Under the pieces are notes generated by a model. It searched no databases and had not been told where the DNA came from. It was given only the letters and a program-made list of their open reading frames with translations. This document shows positions 2,316 through 62,415 of a stretch of 64,000 nucleotides of DNA, one piece after another (the first letter of the stretch is position 1; each line of letters opens with the position of its first letter). Made by a program: the position numbers and the translations under genes. Source of the stretch: Eledone cirrhosa (Eukaryota); contig OZ024743.1 of the NCBI GenBank assembly GCA_964016885.1, forward strand, positions 41,974,001 to 42,038,000, written 5' to 3'.

Positions 2316-5300
2316 GTAGCAGTTTAGCCCGGCGTTGCTCGGGTTTGTTCATTTGCTATGAAAAGTTACATACAGGTAAACGTGGCTTGAAAGCGAATAA
2401 GCTTATCAATTAAGTGCATAAAGCGGTTGAACCGATTATTAAAAGTTACGAACTATTTAGCATTTTGGACAATCAATGATGTGTTAATAATCTTCCAATA
2501 GCGATTTTAGCAGACCAAAGTTGCAAGATGGTGGCCCTGATGCCGCTGGGTGTCAGATCTGTCCGCCATGGGTGACCCTACCAGGAAATAGTTTTCCAGA
2601 CGGCATAGCTCCAAACACCTCCAACACCTGCATCAACATCTATAACACCTCTTTGTAGACGATATTGCGTGTCATCCCTTGAGGAGTGTAAGTAAAATGT
2701 CCATTCCTGCTCCCTACGCAGGAACAGGCAAATTAAAGTTGGCCATGGGAGAAGCATGACTCCCCAAATGGATTCCCGCCACCGACAATGTTTGCCCATG
2801 TGACTTGTTAATGGACATGGCAAAACATGGTCTCACCGGGAATAGAAATCACCAGAAATCGAACGGGATATCTGACGCTGAGGGGAACAGGTTCATCCTT
2901 GGAATGAAAACTTTCTCCCCCCTCCCGTACCCCGTTACAATGGTGACCTCAATCAAGTGGGGCGTCAGTGACTTGACGACCATATGAGTACCGTTGCACT
3001 GCTTTGGTGGACGTAAGTTCCTTATTAGCATAATGGGACAGCCAACCATAAGGTTAAGAATGTGAGGTGGGAACCCTGGGGGCTCAAGGGAATTTAATAA
3101 CTCAACCGGATAATTAACCATATCGTCGGGGTCTGACGATAGGTTTGAAAATATGCTCTTTACCAGGAATCTTTTCAATCAGTTGCTCGTTAATAAAATT
3201 AACCATGGCATTTCTCGGAGCAAGGATGGCTCTTTTGTTGATCCAATCGACGTTTTTAAAGTTAGATGAGACATCAGGAAAAATTGCTTCCCAACGGTCA
3301 GAAGGGCTGCTCACAATGTTGCACAGGGAGTCGATTGCTATGCCGCTCTTGTCATCCGCAGGGAGCTTGCCCTCACCAAGTGCTAAAATGTTCTGCGCAA
3401 ATGCTGCTGACATGTTGTCACAATGCAAATGAGCACGCATATTTGTGCTCAGGTACAAACCCTTCACCTGGGGCCACAACGTGGACGACTTAAGGTATGC
3501 ACGCACTTCATCAGCTCTTGTCCCTTTGGGGATGACAGGCAGCGTTTGCCGAAATTCCTCTGATAGCAGAAGTGTTACGCCACCCATAGGAGACGTAGAA
3601 TCCCTAATTTCTTTCAGGGTCCCGTCCACTGCCTCAAGGGCACCATTGCGCGCCATGGTACACTCATCCCAAACATTTTTGAGAACCATAGCTTCGTGTG
3701 AACTCTTGCTGATATTGCATGATGGTGCCTCTTTTTTTCCTAAATCCAAGGGGAGTTTAAATGTTGAATGTGCTGTCTTGCCTCCCGGCAGCAAAGTAGC
3801 AGCGATCAGCAACGGACAATGCAACGGCCAACGCAATTTCTTTCTACTGACGAATCTTAGCGATAATCAATTTCGTTACAAAAGTGTTTCCGGTACCCCC
3901 AGGAGCATCGAGAAAGTAAATACCCCCAGTCTGATTTTGAACCGCGTCAATGATAGTTAAATAGGCCAGCCTTTGGTCCGACCGAAGTTTGAGCTAATTT
4001 TTCTCTTAGCATTGGGAAAGAGATTCGATGTCATATGCTGTTTCCCGCAACAAATCCGGGGCCAACGTGTTAGCTTCCTCTCTGACGGTTGACGGCAAGC
4101 CATAGGTCGCCAACTCACTCCCACCCATGTCGAGGCGGTCGTCCTCAATATCAATGAGTGCCCTGTTGTAGATAATGTCGCTGTAACCAACTTCCACTGA
4201 AGGATACTGCAGATGAGCTAGACGCAGGAAGACCTCAGACATGAAGTCTCTGTACTTGACCCATAAAGATTTGGTATCACCCAATTCACACTTTTGAAGC
4301 AAAATGGCAAAGAGTTCCCATAGACTTTTAGGTGATTTCAACAAAGCACCATCTGCTAAAGTAGAATCCCATTACGAATCATCTTCTAAAAGACCACGCT
4401 TAGAGCAGGATTCCCAGTACGTATCACATATTTCTCCATCAACAGTTTTGAATTCCTGAAAACTTTGGCCTACAACTTCATGCAGAAGAAGGCGGAGATG
4501 AAAGCACTCATGCTTAGTTGGGGGCACAGTGTAAACCCTTCCAAGACAGCTGTCAAATTTTACACCAGGATGTCTTTCAACAGCCTGACTTGACTTTCGT
4601 CGCACCCAAGTGTTTTCGACCATATAAAGTTGGATGGAACCTGGGGGTACACAATTGTTTGCGCAAATGTATCGAACTTTCAAAGTTTGAAGAAACCCGT
4701 CTAGCGGGAGTAAATTAACATTGCCATTGAATCAGCACATTCCAGGTGATTCTCCAGCACACTTATTTGTACTACAGAACTTGCAAGTTAAACTCATATT
4801 CCCAATCTGGATGTCAGGCCGCATTGAGAGGTTTAAGTGTTGGATCATAATTAAACGCTTTTATAAGCAAATATGAATTAGATTTTAAAAGACAATATGG
4901 AAGTTTCTTTACGTCGATTGTTCTTTTCTAGTCTAATACTGCAATCGTTGTGTGATTCCTTGGCTCTAGCAGCGGCAGTAGCCACCGAATTATAAGAATT
5001 ACGAAGTGATTGTTGCTGTTCATTTTCGGTAGCTCTAGCAGCGGCAGTAGCCACAGCATTCCGGGATAGAACGGTCTAAATCCCTAAGCTTAGCACGCGA
5101 CGAAGTATAGTAAATTGTATTGCTGGCTAGACGCTCACTACGCTGGTCGTCGGTTTCAGCATCTCTTCTATTTTCTGAACGTAAAGCACTTTGTGACAAT
5201 CGCAATTCAGTTTCCTCCTGCGACTCATTCAACCGTCTTCTTTTCTGTTTAGCTGCAGACACCGTTTCACGCCCAAGTGAGCATCTCTTTTTTGGGCGCA

Positions 5301-10418: not shown

Positions 10419-10746
10419 ATGTGTGTGTGTGTGTGCGTGTGTGTGTGCGTGTGTGTGCGTGTGTATACATATGCATTTATAAATATATATATATATATAC
10501 ATATACATTTATAAACATATATATATGTATGTATATATAAATATATATATATTTATATATATATTGTTATACTTGGGGAGGGTCATATATATTTTTCAAC
10601 ATATGTATATTTATATATACATATGCATATATATATATATATAATTAATATAATAACAGAGATAGTTTATAGCTAAACTCTGACTGGTAACCATCTCACT
10701 CAAAAAAACATTAGTTTATATTAAAATATAAACCCAATTTAAGTGT

Positions 10747-11187
10747 TTGGGTACCTCCGTAAAAACACTTATTAGCAAGACACACCCGTTCCAAAGACCC
10801 TCATGTATAGATAAGAAATGTATAACGTGTAAAATAAGCCCCCATATTAACTGTAAAACTAGAAATGTAGTGTATAGCATAAGATGTACTGAGGGACAAT
10901 GTAGAAACAAAAATATAGTGTACATAGGTGAGACAGCTCGTAGTATAGGGGAACGAATAAATGAACACTGGCGAGACCTTCAACATAATAAAGAATCATC
11001 TGTGCTCTACCAACATGCTAAGATAGAACACAGGGGTAGATTAGAGAACATAGAAATAAAAATAGAATCCACACACAGAAAAGATGCAATGTTTAGGCAA
11101 ATTACAGAGGCAGAAAGCATAAAAGAATTACAACCAAAATTAAATAGAAAATATGAATGGAACAGCAACATCACAACTTACAATTAA
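10747..11187 (+). pseudogene. PLE GIY-YIG endonuclease C-terminal fragment
   Basis: CIDKKCITC...[13 protein letters not shown]...YIGETARS...R.NEH...RQITEA...PKLN, homologous to the C-terminus of the ORF at 36663-39545. Confidence 0.85.
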
Positions 11188-14003: not shown

Positions 14004-15619
14004 CATATGCATACCAACACATCCATTTGTATTTTTGTATCTATGTAAGCTTATAAATATGTATGTGGGTAGGTATTTATGTACGCACGTGTTCATGCAC
14101 ATGTAGGTATATTTGGGTATATCTGGAAACTAAAGGATATTATTATAATTAATTCATAAACTTTCGCCTTCGTATCAAGTTCTGGTGAATATTCGAGTAG
14201 ATCAATATATCTTTGTCGATCCTGTAAATAAAGGATGTACATAGAAATGTAACGCTAATGCAACGACAATATTATTTACTGATTCTATATATTTCAATAT
14301 CTTAGATATCCCTGTAGACGTGAAGCAGCCTCAATAGTTTCAGCTAATTCCAATATTACTCTTTATAATTTTATCACCAATATCAGTATGTATTTGTATA
14401 TTACTTGTATTGCCCATGAATTTTATTTTCCAACTACATCAATTACTAATACCTATTATTACTGTTTATTTTGCCGGCATGCTTTCTGTTTTCCAATTTA
14501 TTTACTGCAACATATACTATATTTGAAACTGATATATAGATATATGTTTGCGAGTGAACTTTGATGAATTATTACGTTGTCGCATTGCTCTAATGGCTAT
14601 CAATGCTACAGGTATAGAGGTCTTTGTTTAAAGAATCATGTTTATGTCGCTATTCTTTTGTTTTATTATTTATCTTGATGTGTAAATGCAGTTTCGCCTA
14701 TAAATGTCTTTCTAGCAGTGAATTCTGCGAGACTAAGCTACGTAGATCTCTGTGGGTAGAACTAATTTCTGACCTTTACCTTCATGGGTTGAAATTGTTT
14801 ACAAACGTGATGAGATCAAGTGCAAAGTGAGTTTTGATTGTGCTTGTATAAACGATGATTTGTTTAAGTTTTGAGTTATGTGGGTGGCAACAAAAATGGC
14901 TCGTTTTAAGGCTGTTGGATGATTTAGTTAATGACAGATTGCTAATGCTTCTAAAAGTCTTCATGATATGAATTACTTTTTGTTGGTTTTACCTGCAACT
15001 AAACGTTCAGCCTGGTCACACAATACTGGGTCACCGTGAAAATTACATTACATATAAACGGGTCTATGAAATACTAAAACAGTTTCAAATAATTAAATTG
15101 TCCTGGTTTCAGTTGATGGAGTGGTTGAATGCCAATAGTTATACGGACGGAAGATCCATCCTCATTCTAGAATAGAGATGATCTAGAAAAGTGTTTCATG
15201 TTCATATATTGTTTCTTTTATGATTTTGTCATCGTCGCATTGTGGAAAAGTATAACGATTTGCTTATCTTTTCCAATATCAGGATTCATACTAATACTAA
15301 ATATATTGCACGAACTCTTTAGTTGCTGTGTATATGATGCATGTGTTGGTAACAATGAGGTGATACAATCTGCATAGGTGAGAACTTAAATATTATGGAG
15401 GAAGAAAATGAAAGAAAAATTAACTTCACGTCCTTCATTCCATTAGATTCTGCAATTAGAACCTACTCATTCATTTCAAGCACGTAGATTTATAAGACTT
15501 AAAGGAATTGTTACATATATATATATATATATATATATATAAACAAACAAACACCCCGAATTACGCTGTACAGTGTTTAGGCAAGCACGTCACCTTTTTG
15601 TTCAACACTGACACAGGAA

Positions 15620-15660
15620 TGATGTACTAGTGTCAAGATTATTAGCTATCGTCAGCATCG
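15620..15660 (-). ncRNA. Family G hammerhead, core mutated (GAAA to GACA)
   Basis: CGAUG-CUGACGA-UAGCUAAUAAUCUU-GACA-CUAG-UA-CAUCA. Confidence 0.65.
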
Positions 15661-15939
15661 TATACCTTCCTGCCAGATGGTTGAACGTCTGAAAGTATAT
15701 ACTTTCCTTATGCATATTAACGACTGAGCAGCCTAATGTGCATATCGAGTGAGTTTAGTCGGCCTGATTCACCGAAAACGATAAATGTAAGTATGTACGT
15801 ATGTATACGTACATACATATATGTATACGTACAGTAGTATGTATATATACACATACATGCACACATATATATATGCACGTTAATATGCGTAAGGAAAGTA
15901 TATACTTTCAGACGTTCAACCATCTGGCAGGAAGGTATA

Positions 15940-15980
15940 CGATGCTGACGATAGCTAATAAGCTTGAAACTAGTACATCG
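15940..15980 (+). ncRNA. Minimal type I hammerhead ribozyme (family G), intact
   Basis: CGAUG-CUGACGA-U-AGCU-AAUA-AGCU-U-GAAA-CUAG-UA^CAUCG; palindromic stem III ACUAGU. Confidence 0.9.
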
Positions 15981-16771
15981 TTCCTGTGTCAGTGTTGAAC
16001 AAAAAGGTGACCTGGTTGCCTAAACACTGTATGACGTAATTCAGGGTGTTTGTTTGTTTACAAACAAACCAAGCATTATAATAAATGTTCGGTAAACCGA
16101 TACGTGCATATATATATATATATGTGTGCATGTATGTATATATATACATACTACTGTACGTCTGTATACATATATGTATGTACGTATACATACATACATA
16201 CTTACATTTAAATAACTGCCGTACTAAGAGTGAGAAATGAAATTTCGTTTCATTCTACTCCATTTATATATATATATATATATAAATGAAATAACAGGAG
16301 GCTGGACTGGTGTAAATCCTTGAAAGGTTTATTATACTATGATCATTTCAATGACCGGGTTCCAACAGACCTACAGATATATATACGAGTGTATAATGGT
16401 AGCTATGGGGCTTCCATAGGCGGTAAGCCAAAATTAGCACTCAATTTTCTTACAGAGCAGAGTTTGAATAGTATAAACAACAAAAATCAGGGATGCATCT
16501 GGACTCAGTATATTGCGTGTTACAATTGTTTCGCCAGCGGGTAGCTCGAGACATGATCACTGTATGGTTCTGGATGATTCTACGGCTGCAGGTTCCTTCG
16601 GAGAGCTGCAATATCTGAATAATAACAGGTAGACATCATAAGAAATTAATTTAATCCGAGTGCTTACAAATATTTCAACAGTAGTTATACAGCCTAGTCA
16701 TGCTATGTGCAAATTGGTAATTATTTGCAGAAACTCAATTTTCAAATGCTGTTTCTACCGTTTCCGCAGAG

Positions 16772-20308: not shown

Positions 20309-22189
20309 TCAAGGCGGTTGGTTTCTCATAGGAGTGTCAATCCAGTTACAGATCAGGTACGGTCTCAGATGAGGACAGCATCTGAAGATCTCAGTCTTTG
20401 AATTAAGGCAAGCGGAAGTGTCTCTCAAGTTTAGCAAAATCCTATTCTTTTCTGTGGTACACAAAGAACAATTCTTTGTGCCCCTTTGGTACTCCCTCGA
20501 ATGGTCTAATATAGACCAATCAATAGAGTACGGGATGTTACTATCCTTGAGTTCCCACACCTTACTTGCGAGGGCCGTTGATGTTCGTTTATCGGAGTGC
20601 TTAAAAGAAGCGACATGTGAGTAAAATCTGGTTTTAAACCTGTCCTGGATCATACCGACATATCGCTCACTCCTGGCTGGCTGGTTGTTGATTACTGGTG
20701 TTATCGTAGCCTCATAAACGACAGATTTAGTGTTACATCTACCCTGCAATGGGCATTCGTCCGGCTTCCTGCAACTGCATCCTGGATTTATTCTCGTCCG
20801 GTTTGAGCTGGTGATTTTGGACTTCATAGATGGGCAACAAGAGTAGCTGATCTTGACTACGTTCCTATTAAATATCTTATAGTATCTATGATTAGGAGGA
20901 AAATGTTTGTCTAATAGTTCAAGGAATTTCCTTCCTACATTAGTTTTAACAGTTAGAGAGAAGGGGGGTGTGAACCAAATAATCTTCCTTTTCCTGTTAT
21001 TGTGGTTGGTTTTAGGGGGGGGGGGGAGTAGGTAAATAAGAAATGTTTTCTGTAAAACCGCTGTTCTTAAGGGCTTTATTATAATAAGGGGCGGCTTTAT
21101 TAAAAATGTCTATAGACGAAGATAAGGTAGAAATCCTACGGCTAATGTTAGGAATAAGATTATTAAAAACTATAGGAGGATGGCAAGACTCTTTGTGTAT
21201 ATACCTAAGATTTTCGTTAGGTTTATGGTAGTGTTTAAAAGAGGCAGTAAGTAAATCAAGATTAATATCAAGAAAGTTAGCATTAGTAAGATTCGTATCT
21301 ATAGTAATTTTAAGGTTAAGATTAGCAAAAGTATCGATTAAATCTTTACGGAATTTATCAAGGTCATGGCCGTTGGTGGTATGAGAAACTGCTAATCCGT
21401 CATCACGGTATAAACCGATATTATGGGACGGAAATTTCTCTTTGAGGGTGTGGAGAAGGAACAATCCAACTAAGTCACACACATCCGCACTGTCATATGA
21501 ACCCATTGCGACATCAAAAGAGTTTTCAGGGTTTGACTTTTTAACCCAAATATTATCATTAGTAAAAAGTAAAGTGTTTCTAGCATGGAGGATAATGTCT
21601 TCTTCTAATTTAGAAATATTAATGGAGGGTCTTGCAAAATCTAAGGCCTTAGTTAATAAGGAAACAGTAATAGAAGGGTAAAAATCGACAATATCAAACT
21701 GGGTAAATCTACACTTATTTTTACCTTGTATATTATTGAACCAAGAAATAACAGAGGAAGTATTTAGCCACTGTGATAGGTCAGTGTTAGTTCTGATTTG
21801 GAGAATTATTTTTCTTAAGATATTCTTACTTACAAGGCCAACCTCGGATTTAGCCGGGTTAATCAATCTACAACTAGGTCGATTAGTAAAGTCCAATGTA
21901 TGGTCTTTAAGGGTAATATATTCTTTACGCTTAGCTAAGCTTTCAATCCGGTTATCTATTTGTAAAGAACTAGCTAGTTCTTTAGCTTCTTTATTGATAG
22001 TATTGTAGGTATTATTATTAGTTAATTGATATTTATTGGTAATACTATTAGTTAAAAGTTGGTTATACAAAGTACTATTAACTTCAAAGAGGTTTTTAGT
22101 TTTATCAGAAAGAACGAAAGTGTTTGTAGAATTTCTAAAATTAGAAATATCGTTAGAAAGTTTGGTTTGAAAGTTATTATTGTAAATTT
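20309..22189 (-). pseudogene. PLE reverse transcriptase-GIY-YIG ORF, 5'-truncated, one frameshift in a G12 run (21015-21026)
   Basis: RT motifs LKDH...CRLINP, QFDIVDFYPSI, AMGSYDSADVCDLVG, GLYRDDGL, NFLD; linker IIWFTPPFS...CSCRKPDECPLQGRC; EN VVYEA...YVGM...FKTRFYSH. Confidence 0.9.
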
Positions 22190-22389
22190 TTTTGCTTTTA
22201 AGAAACCCTTGGTAAATGGAATAATTGCCTTATGTTGCTTTAATACTTTACTACTATATATACGGTTATGTAAGGTCCTTATGGTTTATCTAAGATTGAG
22301 CTTTACATACACACACGCATATACGTGTGTGTATGCGTATGCATGTGTGTGGGCGTGGTTGTGTATGTGTGTATATGTGTATATGCATG

Positions 22390-28352: not shown

Positions 28353-28404
<52 letters not shown>

Positions 28405-28407
<3 letters not shown>

Positions 28408-28590
28408 TATGTATGTATACGTACATACGTATATGTATACAGACGTACAGTAGCATGCATATATATATATATATATATATGTTTGCATGCTACTGTACGT
28501 CTGTATACATATATGTATATACGTATACATACATACTTACATTTAAGTAAGTGCCAAACTAAGAGTGAAAAATGAAATTTCGTTTTCATT
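28405..28590. repeat. Family G fragments in divergent inverted arrangement
   Basis: AGACGTACAGTAGCATGCA-(TA)n-TGCATGCTACTGTACGTCT...GAGTGAAAAATGAAATTTCG. Confidence 0.8.
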
Positions 28591-28598
28591 TTTTTCAA

Positions 28599-28661
<63 letters not shown>

Positions 28662-34563: not shown

Positions 34564-34628
<65 letters not shown>

Positions 34629-34742
34629 TTGTAATATAGTGAAACGAAATTTCATTTCTCACTCTTAGTACGGCACTTACTTAAATGTAAGTACGTATGT
34701 ATACGTACATACATATATGTATACAGACGTACAGTAGCATGC

Positions 34743-34785
<43 letters not shown>

Positions 34786-34943
34786 TATATACAGGTACAC
34801 ATATATATATATGTACGTATCAGTTTAGCGAACGTTTATTATAACGCCCGCTTTGTCCGTTTGTAAACAAGCGAACAGACTGATTTATGCCATACGGTGT
34901 TAAGGCAACCACGTCACCTTTTTATTCAACACTGACACAGAAA

Positions 34944-34984
34944 CGATGTACTAGTTTCAAGCTTGTTAGCTATCATCAGCACCG
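34944..34984 (-). ncRNA. Minimal type I hammerhead (family G), intact
   Basis: CGGUG-CUGAUGA-UAGCUAACAAGCUU-GAAA-CUAG-UA^CAUCG. Confidence 0.9.
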
Positions 34985-35220
34985 TATACCCTTCTGCCAG
35001 ATAGTTGAACGTTCGAAAGTATATACTTTCCCTATGAAAATTAATGGCTGAGCAGCCTAATTTGCATATCGAGTGAGTTCAGTCGGCCAGGCGTACCGAA
35101 AACGATAAGTTGTAATATAATGAAACGAAATTTCATTTCTCACTCTTAGTACGGCACTTACTTAAATGTAAGTATGTATGTATACGTACATACATATATG
35201 TATACAGACGTACAGTAGCA

Positions 35221-35310
<90 letters not shown>

Positions 35311-35476
35311 TATGTGAGTGAAAAATGAAATTTCGTTTCATTATATTATAACTTATCGTTTTCGGTACGCCTGGCCTACTGAACTCACTCGATAATCAAA
35401 TGAGGCTGCTCAGCCGTTAATTTTCATAAGGAAAGTATATACTTTCGAACGTTCAACTATCTGGCAGAAGGGTATA

Positions 35477-35517
35477 CGATGTTGATGATAGCTAACAAGC
35501 TTGAAACTAGTACATCG
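35477..35517 (+). ncRNA. Family G hammerhead with C3U change (UUGAUGA)
   Basis: CGAUG-UUGAUGA-UAGCUAACAAGCUU-GAAA-CUAG-UA^CAUCG. Confidence 0.75.
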
Positions 35518-35690
35518 TTCCTGTGTCATTGTTGAACGAAAAAAAAAAAAAAAAAAAAAGGTGACGTGGTTGCCTTAACACCGTATGGCATAAATCAGGC
35601 TGTTCGGTTGTTTACAAACGGACAAAGCGGGCGTTATAATAAACGTTCGCTAAACTGATACGTACATATATATATGTGTACCTGTATGTA

Positions 35691-35737
<47 letters not shown>

Positions 35738-35976
35738 GCATGCTACTGTACGTCTGTATACATATATGTATGTACGTATACATACAGACTTACATTTAAG
35801 TAAGTGCCGTACTAAGAGTGAGAAATAAAATTTCGTTTCATTATATTACAACTTATCGTTTTCGGTACGCCTGACCGACTGAACTCACTCGATATGCAAA
35901 TTATGCTGCTCAGCCGTTAATTTTCATAAGGAAAGTATACACTTTCGAACGTTCAACTATCTGGCAGAAGGGTATA

Positions 35977-36017
35977 CGGTGCTGATGATAGCTAACAAGC
36001 TTGAAACTAGTACATCG
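35977..36017 (+). ncRNA. Minimal type I hammerhead (family G), intact
   Basis: CGGUG-CUGAUGA-UAGCUAACAAGCUU-GAAA-CUAG-UA^CAUCG; predicted cut after 36012. Confidence 0.9.
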
Positions 36018-36179
36018 TTCCTGTGTCAGTGTTGAACAAAAAGGTGACGTGGTTGCCTTAAGACCGTATGGCATAAATCAGGCTGTTCGCTTGTTTACAA
36101 ACGGACAAAGCGGGCGTTATAATAAACGTTCGCTAAACAGATACGTACATATATATATGTGTACCTGTATGTATATATG

Positions 36180-36218
<39 letters not shown>

Positions 36219-36279
36219 GCATGCTACTGTACGTCTGTATACATATATGTATGTACGTATACATACATACTTACACATA

Positions 36280-36330
<51 letters not shown>

Positions 36331-36572: not shown

Positions 36573-36633
<61 letters not shown>

Positions 36634-36662
36634 TATTTGGGGAGGGTCATATTTGCGTAATA

Positions 36663-39545
36663 TTGCCAGAATTAATAACAGAACACACTCACTGTTTGGT
36701 TGGTTTTCGCTTCTCGCTGTCTTTTATATATATATATCTGCGATCTAACTTACTCGGTGATAATGGTAATAATACTAGCGATAGACAGAACAACAACAAC
36801 CACAATAATAATAATAATAGAAACGTTAACCACAGACACAGCAACAGTGACCACAGTAGTAATAACGGTAACAATACGAACAACAACAACAACAATAACC
36901 ACAGTGGTAATAATGGAAATAGTACATGTAGCAACATCAACAAAAACAAGAAACATAATAATAGTAACAACCACAATGGTAGAAATAGCAGTAACAACAA
37001 CAATAACGGTGAAGTAAACAACAATACATCTAGCAATCATAACAATAATAATATTAATGCTAAGGATAGAAACAACAACAACCACCATGATAACAATAAT
37101 AGCAACACACACAACTATGACGATAGAAATAACGACAACCCCTTAGAGAAACTATTTTTCAACCCAGCTGACAAAACATATAAGATGGGTAATATCTATC
37201 CTACGAGGTTACCCTTTAATAAAAGAGTTTGCATACCACAACAAATAGATGACGAGACGGAGGCACAGTTCACCATAGCTAGAAATAAGATTAGACAAGT
37301 AGTAGACAGGTACACTATGAGACAGAGCAGACCAGAGGCCCAACAACTTGGGATAAAACCTGTAGAAGGCTTGGTTAGCCTCAAGCAGCGCACAAGGGAT
37401 GGTGAGGTAGTGTGTCTACCCACAGATAAGTCTGGTAGGATGTCAATAGATAGCATGCCGAACTACATCGAGGCAATGCAACCCCACATCACCAACACGA
37501 GCGAAGTTGCACAACTAACACACGATGGGAGAGAAAAAATCCTCAACGCTCACATGATGATGTGGACTGACATCCTAAAGCCAAGCAGACGCACTGCCAA
37601 CAACTTCCAGGCGTCTAACAATGGCATACCACCCTTGTATGGGCTCCGCAAAGACCACAAGACAGTCGACGACCCGACAATAGGACCACCAACAAGACCT
37701 GTATGCGGAGCTAATATAGCTAGCAACTACAGGATCTCCTACTTCCTCTCAATGGTTATACGCCCCATAATCAAGATGTCCCCAGATGTATGTGAAAGTA
37801 CAGAGGACCTCCTCAGCAGAATCAGTGAGTGCAACAAAAACAGGAGCCTATCCAACTGCATAATAGGCAGCATGGATGTGGTGTCACTGTACCCATCCAT
37901 TAACATTGATTTTGCTGTGAAAAGATGTGTGGAGATGATCATTGAGAGTGAGGTGGAGTTCTGCGACGTCGACACAGACGAACTGGGCCTCCTACTTAGA
38001 CTTACCTACGACACTGACTACCTAGACAGCCATGACCTTAGATGTTTCTGCCCTAGTAGACCTATAAGAGGTAGACCCCCCACCATAACCTCAATGGCTA
38101 AAAAGACTCCCATAGGAAGGTGGATTGGGTGGACCAAAGCTATACGGACCCCCCAAAACACTGATCAGGTAAGAAAAATGGTCGCACATGCAATAGGGGC
38201 TAGTATCAAAACTACCCTAAAGGGCCACATATTTAAGTTCAATGAGAAAATCTACACCCAAAATGAGGGAGCAGCCATCGGCGTCAGCATAGCTGGCGAT
38301 GTTGCCAACCTTTTCATGGTATGGTGGGAAAGGAGACTTAAAGATCTCCTTAATGAAAGCTCCATAGACCTCATCATGTACTCTCGTTATGTAGACGATA
38401 TCAATATAGTTATAAGAACACCCCCACTAGAGAGCACTAACAAGTTTGATTTAGAACGTAGCACGATGGAAAGCATCCAGCAGATAGCTAATTCCATACA
38501 CCAGAGTATAACTGTAACTATAGACTTCCCTTCCAAACACCCTAACAATAGACTACCTGTATTAGACACAGAACTCTGGATTAACACTATAGACGAGAGA
38601 GCCCAAATTCTCCACTCACACTATGCTAAACCCATGGCCTCCAAATACCTGATACTCAAAAACTCAGCAATGTCCAGTAGTGCTAAGTTTAATATTCTGA
38701 TCGCAGATTTGGTACGAGTGATGAAGAATGTGTCCAGCATGTGCGACCCAACAGAAATGGAAGGACACATCCAACACTTCATCAACCGCATGCAGTTCTC
38801 TGGCTACAACCAAAGAGACAGAGTCAGAGTATACGAAGGAGCCATGGAAAAGTATAAGACCCTCATAGAACTGGACATGAAAGGAATTTGCCCACTATAC
38901 AGGAGCAAATCATGGAATAGCTTAGATAGGGCTAGACATAAGATAGGGAAGGCCACATCATGGTACGACAACCAGAGATATCAGAGTGTCATGTTTGTGG
39001 ACGCCACCCCTGGAGGGAAATTAGCTAACCAGTGTAGAAAGGCCCTGAGAAAGACCCACTTAAAAATAAAGGTGGTAGAAAAGCCAGGAACCACCATAAA
39101 ATCCCTGATCAGCAAAACCTACCCTTTTAAGAAAACCCACTGTACCAATAGGAAATGTATCATATGTAAGGTGAACCCCCGGATAAACTGTAAAACTAGA
39201 AACGTAGTCTATAGCATAAGATGTACAGAGGGTACTTGCAGAAACACGACAACAACATACATAGGTGAGACAGCTCGTAGCATAGGTGAAAGGATAGACC
39301 AACACTGGGGGGAACTAAAAGGACGAAAAAACGGGTCAGTACTATACGAACATGCTAGACAACATCATGACGGTAACATAGACAACATAGAAATTAGAAT
39401 AATATCTAAACATAGGAATGACCCAGCAGATAGGCAAATCAGAGAGGCCAGTGAAATAGAAATTAGAAGACCAAAGCTAAACAGAAAGAATGAGTGGAAC
39501 AACAACAACACCCAAACAAACAACACTGACCTAAGAGAAGTATAA
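36663..39545 (+). CDS. PLE polyprotein: Asn-rich region, reverse transcriptase, Cys linker, GIY-YIG endonuclease (true start uncertain; first ATG at 37185)
   Basis: LYGLRKDHK...[26 protein letters not shown]...[34 protein letters not shown]...YIGETARS...R.DQH...EASEI...PKLN. No stop codons. Confidence 0.92.
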
Positions 39546-39813
39546 ATAAATAAGTAAATTAAATAAAATAAAATAAGATAAATAAATACATACACAAGCA
39601 CATAAACACACACTAGTCACCCAGCAGACAACACTATACACACTAGTCACACATCACACATAACACTATACACACACGCAAACGCATGCGCAAAGAAGAC
39701 AAAATAAAATAAGATAAACAAACAAGCAAATAAATAAATAAATATATAGACAGACTGAACAAAAAAAAAATGGCGTAGACATACAACACAACAGGAGGAA
39801 CAATGAATATAAC

Positions 39814-39855
39814 ACCACTGACGATGTTGCAGATGTGCAACGAAAGATTTATGTA
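39814..39855 (+). ncRNA. Hammerhead motif in PLE-A 3'UTR (core and stem II intact, stem I weak)
   Basis: ACCA-CUGACGA-U-GUUGCA-GAUG-UGCAAC-GAAA-GAUU-UA^UGUA; same position as 11418-11462. Copies at 41174-41215 (-) and 42485-42526 (+). Confidence 0.7.
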
Positions 39856-40120
39856 AACTATATATATATGTGTTTGTCTATATTGTATCTGTATTATTTT
39901 TGACCGCCGGTCAGTCAATGGCAACATTGAGGACCGAGTAAGTTAGATCGCAGATATATATATATAAAAGACAGCGAGAAGCGAAAACCAACCAAACAGT
40001 GAGTGTGTTCTGTTATTAATTCTGGCAATATTACGCAAATATGACCCTCCCCAAATATAACAATATCTGTTTCGACACACGATTTCATATAAAAAACCTC
40101 GCAAAACTAATTCATCGCCG

Positions 40121-40154
<34 letters not shown>

Positions 40155-40921: not shown

Positions 40922-42737
40922 GTTTTGCGAGGTTTTTTATATGAAATCGTGTGTCGAAACAGATATTGTTATATTTGGGGAGGGTCATATTTGCGTAATA
41001 TTGCCAGAATTAATAACAGAACACACTCACTGTTTGGTTGGTTTTCGCTTCTCGCTGTCTTTTATATATATATATCTGCGATCTAACTTACTCGGTCCTC
41101 AATGTTGCCATTGACTGACCGGCGGTCAAAAATAATACAGATACAATATAGACAAACACATATATATATAGTTTACATAAATCTTTCGTTGCACATCTGC
41201 AACATCGTCAGTGGTGTTATATTCATTGTTCCTCCTGTTGTGTTGTATGTCTACGCCATTTTTTTTTGTTCAGTCTGTCTATATATTTATTTATTTATTT
41301 GCTTGTTTGTTTATCTTATTTTATTTTGTCTTCTTTGCGCATGCGTTTGCGTGTGTGTATAGTGTTATGTGTGATGTGTGACTAGTGTGTATCGTGTTGT
41401 GTCTGCTGGGTGACTAGTGTGTGTTTATGTGCTTGTGTATGTATTTATTTATCTTATTTTATTTAATTTAATTTACTTATTTATTTATACTTCTCTTAGG
41501 TCAGTGTTGTTTGTTTGGGTGTTGTTGTTGTTCCACTCATTCTTTCTGTTTAGCTTTGGTTTTCTAATTTCTATTTCACTGGCCTCTCTGATTTGCCTAT
41601 CTGCTGGGTCATTCCTATGTTTAGATATTATTCTAATTTCTATGTTGTCTATGTTACCGTCATGATGTTGTCTAGCATGTTCGTATAGTACTGACCCGTT
41701 TTTTCGTCCTTTTAGTTCCCCCCAGTGTTGGTCTATCCTTTCACCTATGCTACGAGCTGTCTCACCTATGTATGTTGTTGTCGTGTTTCTGCAAGTACCC
41801 TCTGTACATCTTATGCTATAGACTACGTTTCTAGTTTTACAGTTTATCCCGGATAAACTGTAAAACTAGAAACGTAGTCTATAGCATAAGATGTACAGAG
41901 GGTACTTGCAGAAACACGACAACAACATACATAGGTGAGACAGCTCGTAGCATAGGTGAAAGGATAGACCAACACTGGGGGGAACTAAAAGGACGAAAAA
42001 ACGGGTCAGTACTATACGAACATGCTAGACAACATCATGACGGTAACATAGACAACATAGAAATTAGAATAATATCTAAACATAGGAATGACCCAGCAGA
42101 TAGGCAAATCAGAGAGGCCAGTGAAATAGAAATTAGAAAACCAAAGCTAAACAGAAAGAATGAGTGGAACAACAACAACACCCAAACAAACAACACTGAC
42201 CTAAGAGAAGTATAAATAAATAAGTAAATTAAATTAAATAAAATAAGATAAATAAATACATACACAAGCACATAAACACACACTAGTCACCCAGCAGACA
42301 CAACACGATACACACTAGTCACACATCACACATAACACTATACACACACGCAAACGCATGCGCAAAGAAGACAAAATAAAATAAGATAAACAAACAAGCA
42401 AATAAATAAATAAATATATAGACAGACTGAACAAAAAAAAATGGCGTAGACATACAACACAACAGGAGGAACAATGAATATAACACCACTGACGATGTTG
42501 CAGATGTGCAACGAAAGATTTATGTAAACTATATATATATGTGTTTGTCTATATTGTATCTGTATTATTTTTGACCGCCGGTCAGTCAATGGCAACATTG
42601 AGGACCGAGTAAGTTAGATCGCAGATATATATATATAAAAGACAGCGAGAAGCGAAAACCAACCAAACAGTGAGTGTGTTCTGTTATTAATTCTGGCAAT
42701 ATTACGCAAATATGACCCTCCCCAAATATAACAATAT
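40921..42737. mobile_element. Palindromic PLE-A insertion: two 887-bp 3' ends joined 5'-to-5'
   Basis: 40963-41849 is the reverse complement of 41851-42737 with a 1-nt centre at 41850. Both arms match 39181-40067. The left arm has an extra 42-bp tail. Confidence 0.95.
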
Positions 42738-61499: not shown

Positions 61500-62415
61500 C
61501 ACACATACCCACCTCTGCCCTGTCCACCGTACCTCCGTACACACCTACACACATACCACAGCAAATACAGATCCTCACTAACACCTGTCCGCCTCCTCCC
61601 CACATTGCCTGCTTGTCACATTCCTACTGCTATCTCCTTCCTCCGACTTCCTTCGCCCTGTCTTGACCCACTACCACTTCCTGTGGACGCGCACCCCAGA
61701 ACTCTCTAATTCTTCAATGCTAGCAAGGAATTTACACCACCGGTCCACCGCTCCAGGCATCCAACCTGCTATACTTGGAATTTTCAACATCCATTCCGAA
61801 AGCCTGCGGAAAAGACATCCGGGAACACACAGAAACACTTACACTATTTTGGCACCACGCACCCATAAATCCACACACACACACGTGCGTAACCTCATAT
61901 ACACACACACAGGCTCCAGACTCCACACCCCCTCTGCCCCACCCCCTGACCCCTCTCCATCCACACGTACACACACACTGACTTACACCTCACCCCATGT
62001 ACACACTGTTTTCCCTATTACCCGAACATGGAACCTCGTTCTTCCCCAAATTCTCATATTCACATCCATCACACTCACATACACGTACACCTATACACAT
62101 ACACACACCACCACCTTCAACCCTCCCCCACTCGGACCCCCTGTCTCCCTCTCCCCTCTCCCCCTCCATCCACCCACTACACCCTACACGCCTAACACCC
62201 TTTCACGACTTGTTTCATTTTAATGTTTTACCATCTATGTATTTCCACCACTCCCCCACACACCTCGGAACTCTTTTCCTGCCCACCTTTCTCCTGATGA
62301 AGGGCTTATGCCCGAAACGTCGTCCCCCACCCCCTACTCTCAAGCGTGATCCTAACATCAACACTTTGTACTGCCTCTTCTCTTCGTTGCTGTTTTTATT
62401 GTTTTCGGCTTTAAC
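61500..62415 (+). mobile_element. Decayed PLE 3' end (third type)
   Basis: C/A-rich strand, weak GIY-YIG C-terminal-like peptides, an HHR core and a short tail before (TA)n. Confidence 0.45.
62290..62325 (+). ncRNA. Minimal hammerhead core (stem I not evident)
   Basis: CUGAUGA-A-GGGC-UUAU-GCCC-GAAA-CG-UC^; palindromic stem III ACGU. Confidence 0.65.

What the first reader, a model, noticed from the sequence alone, without database searches (positions are those of the whole stretch)
34624..36275. Tandem ~480-500 bp retrozyme-like monomers, each with one minimal hammerhead
Seen: non-coding head-to-tail monomers with HHRs exactly one period apart (predicted cuts at 35512 and 36012) and palindromic stem III ACUAGU. 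A diverged subfamily at 15541-16255 keeps the structure: stem I CGAUG/CGGUG both pair with CAUCG, and the other changes fall in N7 and loop 2. Established: metazoan non-LTR retrozymes are tandem HHR repeats processed to circular RNAs, and minimal HHRs with palindromic stem III cleave as dimers. Inference: a ~0.5-kb circRNA-producing family, larger than the typically described monomers and containing an internal microsatellite.
Basis: partly seen in the sequence, partly recalled or inferred. Interest (0 to 1): 0.85.

Follow-up and report, generated by a model that had tools for sequence, protein, structure and literature searches.

The report
Two-armed hammerhead retrozyme, Penelope footprint
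This is one ageing copy of an abundant, non-coding jumping repeat that carries a hammerhead (self-cutting RNA) motif and sits in TA microsatellites as two back-to-back arms ending at two fixed sites, a pattern that likely records a Penelope-type retrotransposon enzyme copying it, probably from an RNA circle.

Summary
The hammerheads are real, but the locus is not a plain head-to-tail array. The genome holds 11,353 exact matches to the hammerhead 34-mer, dispersed. Copies have ragged 5' ends, read through the cleavage site without a pile-up, and stop at two fixed 3' sites about 59 nt apart; 44 of 46 divergent arm pairs use one site each. That is the inverted-arm-plus-tail footprint of Penelope-like elements (PLEs), seen also in the intact PLE next door. 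Related subfamilies down to 61% identity keep the core and show two-sided changes in 6 of 13 stem pairs. Verdict: a non-LTR retrozyme very likely moved in trans by a PLE; a circular template is likely but unproven, no RNA data were available, and no partner PLE was identified. Unit size (422-573 nt) lies inside the published range. The scan's earlier notes found this same pattern on other DNA of this and other genomes.

The parts
34565..34626 (.). (TA)n flank, likely the target site
   Evidence: TRF; sequence
34627..35298 (-). Left arm: 3' end at the long site A (unit position 481, at 34627), one full 481-nt unit (34627-35107) plus a partial unit; 5' end lost in (TA)n near 35224-35298
   Evidence: BLAST; end calling
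34943..34985 (-). Hammerhead with intact core; predicted cut between 34949 and 34948
   Evidence: cut at unit position 159
35224..35315 (.). 5'-5' junction of the two arms, inside a (TA)n run
35316..36275 (+). Right arm: partial tail (35316-35353), unit 1 (35354-35853), unit 2 (35854-36275) ending at the short site B (unit position about 422)
35476..35518 (+). Hammerhead with C3U core change; predicted cut after 35512
35976..36018 (+). Hammerhead with intact core; predicted cut after 36012
35513..36012 (+). The only cut-to-cut monomer of the locus (500 nt, with a poly(A) expansion); predicted circular fold -155.7 kcal/mol, 66% paired
35657..35794 (+). Long AU-rich hairpin whose upper stem and loop are the internal (TA)n; site B lies at its 3' foot
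   Evidence: fold; landmarks
35795..35853 (+). 59-nt tail between sites B and A, with a small hairpin kept in both families
35894..35901 (+). ATGCAAAT octamer, invariant among six subfamily majorities; role unknown (also 35060-35067 minus)
36276..36326 (.). (TA)n flank on the right
15540..16257 (.). Second, older two-armed insertion (about 84% to the first); hammerhead 15939-15981 plus intact, 15619-15661 minus damaged
28398..28603 (.). Third, short two-armed insertion (B arm minus, A arm plus) without a hammerhead
36630..40121 (+). Context, not part of the family: Penelope-like element with RT-GIY-YIG frame 36576-39545, inverted tail-less left arm and tailed right end in (TA)n

Best explanation
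This is a non-coding, hammerhead-bearing repeat inserted in (TA)n as two divergent arms with fixed 3' ends, and it is most likely a non-LTR retrozyme written into DNA by the reverse transcriptase-endonuclease of a Penelope-like element, probably from a circular RNA. Shown: the anatomy, the two fixed ends, the one-long-one-short pairing, read-through of the cut site, and selection on the ribozyme fold among source lineages. Inferred steps: (1) a multi-unit source copy is transcribed; (2) adjacent hammerheads pair their ACUAGU palindromes and cut after GUH; (3) the monomer is ligated to a circle; (4) a PLE protein dimer cuts both strands of a (TA)n tract and each 3' end primes cDNA synthesis at one of two internal RNA sites (B at the foot of the long hairpin, A 59 nt further on; both are followed by UA in the RNA); (5) both cDNAs run for a variable distance, across the sealed cut site, and their ends are joined, which gives the head-to-head arms. 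PLE-type mobilisation about 0.9; circular template about 0.65. The window copy itself is probably no longer a good source.
For: Dispersed high copy number: 11,353 exact hammerhead matches and 21,603 exact tail matches, controls 0. Of 75 tail-motif hits in tail-selected loci, 45 end in (TA)n at site A, 23 continue into the next unit, 7 other. In 109 position-ordered loci, 44 of 46 divergent end pairs are A+B, 2 A+A, 0 B+B; 50% expected if independent, p=1.4e-11. A family only 61% identical has the same two-armed layout with ends at about 399-405 and 470. The neighbouring coding PLE shows the same one-tailed, one-tail-less layout in both of its insertions. Craig et al. 2021 describe inverted arms, a tail often at one end only and (TA)n bias as PLE features; Frangieh et al. 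2024 show that the tail is the RNA between two internal RT start sites and that the protein cuts and extends both strands. 5' ends are spread evenly: 4 of 115 within 155-165 around the cut at 159, 4.6 expected. Units of one insertion share rare variants (31 of 118 same-arm and 10 of 46 opposite-arm pairs against 3 of 300 cross-insertion pairs), so both arms tend to come from one source. Ribozyme under selection: 1 of 16 core and stem III positions varies among six subfamily majorities (H17, A or C) against 110 of 211 others, p=3.5e-4; 6 of 13 pairs change on both sides, stem I pair 3 occurs as GU, AU, UG and UA, slid controls at most 1; H17 is A, C or U in the family representatives.
Against: No RNA evidence at all: cleavage, monomer RNA and circles are untested. 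No autonomous partner found: no similarity of the unit to four PLE families tested and no recurrent ORF-unit junction in 281 overlapping records; seamless joins occur with at least three different PLE families. Frangieh et al. found hammerhead cleavage dispensable for insertion in vitro, saw no strand difference in start site, and found no reads ending at the cut, so read-through fits an uncut multimer as well. Li et al. saw cleavage in only 1 of 9 Xenopus dimers. Family 1 has a U-U mismatch at the base of stem II; isolated hammerhead folds are no more stable than shuffles (z -0.2 to -1.1) and Rfam HH9 scores only 17.6 bits, E 0.053, below the gathering score (family 2: 34.2 bits, E 2.5e-7, also below). 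Family 2 and part of the sample were found through the hammerhead core pattern, so the core-invariance test is partly circular; the stem pairing was not in the pattern. Arrays can also grow at DNA level: L340 repeats a block of 7 diverged units almost exactly. Ends were called by pattern and only about half of the pairs were read by eye.
Confidence: 0.6

Rival explanations
1. Same PLE-driven two-armed insertion, but the template is an uncut linear multimeric transcript; the hammerhead serves some other step (release from a host transcript, RNA turnover) and circles, if made, are not the intermediate.
For: Unprocessed RNA was the dominant substrate of the anole PLE in vitro. Most arms are under two units long. 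Read-through of the cut site and shared rare variants fit a young homogeneous source array too.
Against: Arms of 7 and 10 units exist (L065, L089) and need equally long sources, whereas 5' truncation would shorten arrays every round; circles are the main RNA form of coral, mussel and axolotl retrozymes.
Confidence: 0.3
2. The repeat is the pseudo-LTR of an autonomous PLE not yet found, and these loci are its 5'-truncated debris.
For: PLE pLTRs carry type I hammerheads and leave inverted, truncated copies; only a few hundred of more than ten thousand copies were read.
Against: Upstream of position 1 the copies continue into position 481 of another unit, not into an ORF; up to 10 or more direct units; no recurrent ORF-unit junction in 281 records.
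Confidence: 0.07
3. A DNA-level satellite or fold-back element in which the hammerhead is an inert relic.
For: Local block duplication is seen in L340 and perhaps L336; 9 of 31 tail-selected full copies have a damaged core or stem III.
Against: Dispersal on many contigs, ragged 5' and fixed 3' ends, unequal arms with different ends, and two-sided stem changes.
Confidence: 0.03

Closest known systems
Metazoan non-LTR retrozymes (Cervera and de la Pena 2020, PMC7229834: passages, section 14 and Discussion read; Li, Clavereau and Pollet 2026, 10.64898/2026.07.22.740005: parts 1-3 of 5 read, through the Discussion)
   Same: Non-coding tandem units with one type I hammerhead each, GC under 45% (35%), thousands of copies, short palindromic helix III; a U-U mismatch at the base of helix II is also reported for axolotl HHR_Amex2; coexistence with PLEs; PLE mobilisation already proposed.
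   Different: Here the copies are mostly short two-armed insertions in (TA)n with two fixed ends; the words 'inverted' and 'microsatellite' do not occur in the main text of PMC7229834. Li et al. favour local amplification from a pLTR and rest on pLTR homology; here no pLTR homology was found but the insertion footprint is direct. Expression and circles untested. Supplements of both papers were not read and could show such layouts.
Endonuclease-bearing Penelope-like elements (Craig et al. 2021, PMC8557442: passages; Frangieh et al. 2024, PMC11167929: parts 1-2 of 4, all results; Cervera and de la Pena 2014, PMC4209133: parts 1-2 of 4)
   Same: 5' truncation, partial tandems, inverted 5' arm, tail at one end, microsatellite targets, hammerhead upstream of the RT start sites.
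   Different: No ORF; tail about 59 nt (family 1) or 66-71 nt (family 2) instead of 30-40; ribozyme has a 4-bp helix II and a short helix III rather than the minimal PLE form.
Putatively non-autonomous Chlamys elements such as MRC1 (passage in PMC8557442)
   Same: Non-coding PLE dependants that form multicopy head-to-tail insertions.
   Different: Those resemble their partners at the 3' end and lack canonical hammerheads; this family has a hammerhead and no identified partner.

Membership tests
Non-LTR retrozyme | Tandem units each with a type I hammerhead | tested here: met
   Family level: arrays of 2-10 units per arm and 13 or more in L340. In the window only one tandem pair, one member C3U.
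Non-LTR retrozyme | No coding capacity, no LTR/PBS/PPT layout | tested here: met
   Longest ATG frame 54 aa; units join head to tail without an internal region. PBS and PPT were not searched for separately.
Non-LTR retrozyme | Unit of a few hundred bases, GC under 45-50% | tested here: met
   422-573 nt, GC 35%; published 150-450 and 51-972 bp
Non-LTR retrozyme | Hammerhead fold maintained by selection | tested here: met
   with the ascertainment caveat for the core
Non-LTR retrozyme | Self-cleavage in vitro | not testable with these tools
   needs a bench assay
Non-LTR retrozyme | Monomeric linear and circular RNA in tissue | not testable with these tools
   no RNA run was offered
PLE-mobilised non-autonomous element | 5' truncation with inverted 5' arm | tested here: met
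PLE-mobilised non-autonomous element | [quoted passage not shown] | tested here: met
   44 of 46 pairs A+B; same in family 2
PLE-mobilised non-autonomous element | Sequence similarity to the pLTR or 3' end of an autonomous partner | tested here: inconclusive
   none with the PLE loci tested; the genome holds many more PLE families than were sampled
Autonomous PLE | RT plus GIY-YIG ORF between pLTRs | tested here: not met
Minimal PLE hammerhead (min-HHR, PMC4209133) | No helix III or loop 3, helix II of 7-8 bp, G10.1-C11.1 | tested here: not met
   helix II 4 bp plus U-U, 2-bp palindromic helix III, helix I 6 bp

The most novel reading that the evidence does not exclude
A PLE protein dimer loads on one small circular ribozyme RNA asymmetrically, one subunit at each of two fixed start sites, and copies it from both ends of a double-strand break, rolling past the sealed cleavage site; the strict long-plus-short pairing of arms in thousands of genomic copies is the fossil of that asymmetric complex, and the unit carries its own (TA)n hairpin that is both part of the recognition structure and a landing site for further elements.
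Probability: 0.4. Interest if true: 0.75.

Novelty: new member of a known kind. Interest (0 to 1): 0.5.

Why it matters
How animal retrozymes get back into the genome has been proposed (PLE enzymes, circular template) but the papers read here rest on co-occurrence and pLTR homology. This family shows the PLE footprint in the retrozyme copies themselves and gives exact RT start sites and a near-strict pairing rule, which can be tested with the published in vitro PLE assay on linear and circular templates. The single locus is an ordinary, partly decayed copy.

Tried and rejected
Whole-window Rfam scan: the 150 rows shown of 269 were microsatellite-driven miRNA-type hits, no hammerhead among them. 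RNA runs: no RNA holder listed; four contig runs of unrecorded kind were laid: X1 holds the family abundantly, X5 and X6 (two other coded organisms) hold a few diverged contigs, X4 none; this says nothing on expression. Metagenome pattern scan: 1 hit, a chance match inside prokaryote-like coding DNA. Partner search: relaxed hammerhead patterns returned family variants, family 2, and unrelated chance hits (L289, L293); the neighbour PLE (144 of 144 scored copies identical in the 267-aa query) shares no sequence with the unit. Chimeric joins first suggested the L259 PLE family (L080, L083), but L117, L143, L144, L298 and L339 involve other families, so they were rejected as partner evidence. RNA-editing scars: A>G 61 against T>C 54 in unit positions 1-250, p=0.35; the hairpin region was not tested. 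snRNA-type promoter (lead recalled from newt satellite 2; two paper searches, did not retrieve the primary paper): 12 host U1/U2 upstream regions carry no octamer, and their upstream profile does not match the units beyond shuffles. Alternating variants as a sign of dimer circles: one site in L065, a 470/432 alternation in L336, but an exact 7-unit block repeat in L340 shows DNA-level duplication can do this; inconclusive. A copy count for family 2 by pattern was not obtained; the DNA search gave 1,532 first-look candidates. L324-L325 were used for promoters; L342-L343 were fetched and not analysed.

Full report
Observation. A descriptor finds 4 such motifs in the window against 0.04 in shuffles. 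But self-BLAST shows that 34627-~35298 is the reverse complement of the unit, with a third, intact hammerhead at 34943-34985, and that only 35316-36275 is tandem. The arms meet 5' to 5' inside a (TA)n run and the whole is flanked by (TA)n. The hammerhead at 35476 has U for C3, and its unit differs from the other two at 12 and 13 of 249 sites, while those two differ at 9. The loci at 15540-16257 and 28398-28603 are also two-armed.

Family. The genome (3.0 Gb, animal; host group not determined, cephalopod-like by my recall and by earlier scan notes) has 11,353 exact matches to the hammerhead 34-mer and 21,603 to a 27-mer of the tail, reversed controls 0; the best copies of the window unit are 97-98% identical and lie on many contigs. 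I read loci from the position-ordered lists of both searches (first 100 places each, on contig C1). From 250 full copies, six clusters had at least four loci: five of family 1 (82-97% between majorities) and family 2 (61% to the others); 29 copies in smaller clusters were left out of that test. Unit length is 422-573 nt over 49 spacings; much of the spread within a subfamily lies in the (TA)n that forms the top of a long hairpin.

Ribozyme. Helix I has 6 bp after a GGUA(U/A)A bulge, helix II 4 bp on a U-U (family 1) or G-C (family 2) base, loop 2 AACA or AAUA, helix III the palindrome ACUAGU, which cannot close as a hairpin with a 2-nt loop but pairs with a second copy (-6.8 kcal/mol). Among the six majorities 1 of 16 core and helix III positions varies (H17) against 110 of 211 others; family 2 was found through the core pattern, so this is partly by construction. 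The stems were not in the pattern: on 13 distinct natural copies 6 of 13 pairs change on both sides and slid controls give at most 1 (relatedness inflates the cell counts, so these are a handful of events). 22 of 31 copies chosen by the tail alone have an intact core and helix III. Rfam's best model is HH9, below its gathering score for both families. In a double hammerhead the core of one copy cuts at the other copy's site (established for dimeric hammerheads, recalled; figure described), so the window's C3U pair would be predicted to make only one of its two cuts well.

Insertion footprint. Arms end at two fixed places: A, unit position 481, and B, about 422-426, each followed by UA in the RNA and by (TA)n in the genome. 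In 109 loci (55 chosen by the hammerhead, 54 by the tail, overlaps removed) pattern calling gave 96 A and 58 B ends and 46 divergent pairs: 44 A+B, 2 A+A (one a 45-nt artefact of the tail hairpin, one 1.9 kb apart), 0 B+B. Arms that end elsewhere, such as the left arm at 15540, are not in this count. The window insertion is A (34627) plus B (36273). Family 2 does the same with ends at about 399-405 and 470. 5' ends in the unique part of the unit are spread evenly, 4 of 115 near the cut against 4.6 expected, so cut linear monomers are not the usual template. Units in one insertion share rare variants far more often than units of different insertions.

Mechanism. Craig et al. list inverted 5' copies, a tail often at one end only, and (TA)n bias for PLEs (passages). 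Frangieh et al. show that a PLE protein, predicted to be a dimer, cuts and extends both strands of AT-rich DNA and starts at two internal RNA sites that delimit the tail. The coding PLE beside the finding (frame 36576-39545, weak RVT_1 match; 144 of 144 scored copies identical) has one tailed and one tail-less arm in both of its insertions. The retrozyme family therefore carries the PLE footprint without an ORF. A circle is the simplest template for arms of up to 10 units that cross the cut site seamlessly, and circles are the main RNA form of other animal retrozymes; an uncut multimer cannot be excluded, and some arrays grow by DNA duplication.

Partner. Not found. No similarity to the PLE loci tested, no recurrent ORF-unit junction in 281 overlapping records, and seamless joins with at least three PLE families, which crowd the same (TA)n tracts.

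Standing. Retrozymes, their presence in molluscs, units up to 972 bp and dependence on PLEs are in print. In six paper searches I found no paper that reports the two-armed, two-ended layout for retrozymes; supplements were not read and subscription papers are not in the library. Earlier notes of this scan report the same layout many times on other DNA; I had reached the reading and the pair count before seeing them, and they are not independent support. The finding is a new member of a known kind whose family-level footprint makes a proposed mechanism testable.

Noticed in passing
window 36576-39545 and 40922-42737: Very young PLE family (1,217-residue open frames, about 4.13-kb unit, at least 144 copies identical in a 267-aa RT stretch). 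Its 3' repeat has an odd hammerhead-like motif near 39818 with a 6-7-bp stem II and no clear stem I or palindromic stem III.
   Followed up: partly
L259 about 3295-3350 (also L083, L267): A second PLE family has a hammerhead with a very long stem II (about 16 bp) and a palindromic AUGCGCAU stem III only about 40 nt from its 3' end; read by eye, not tested.
   Followed up: no
L026 2376-3100: A family 2 variant (H17=U) is inserted as two arms inside the internal (TA)n of a family 1 unit, so the internal microsatellite is itself a target.
   Followed up: partly
L083 800-4412; L080 3338-4721: Seamless joins between retrozyme arms and mid-ORF pieces of one PLE family, in both polarities; template switch or later deletion.
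   Followed up: partly
L340 2089-8491: Array of 13 or more diverged units in which a 7-unit block is repeated almost exactly; local duplication or assembly effect.
   Followed up: partly
window 15782-15874: In the left arm the short end B is joined directly to unit position 1, skipping the 59-nt tail.
   Followed up: no
unit 41-48 (window 35894-35901): Invariant ATGCAAAT octamer in the 5' strand of a conserved hairpin whose partner strand varies; used as a loose anchor for family 1 but not for family 2.
   Followed up: partly
L309-L313, L324-L333, upstream -100 to -30: Host U1 and U2 genes share TCA(G/A)T near -57 and AATTA near -90 and lack an octamer within 300 nt.
   Followed up: no
window 62288-62330 and 20309-22229, 10732-11187: Another unrelated hammerhead motif (plus strand) and two further PLE fragments.
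   Followed up: no
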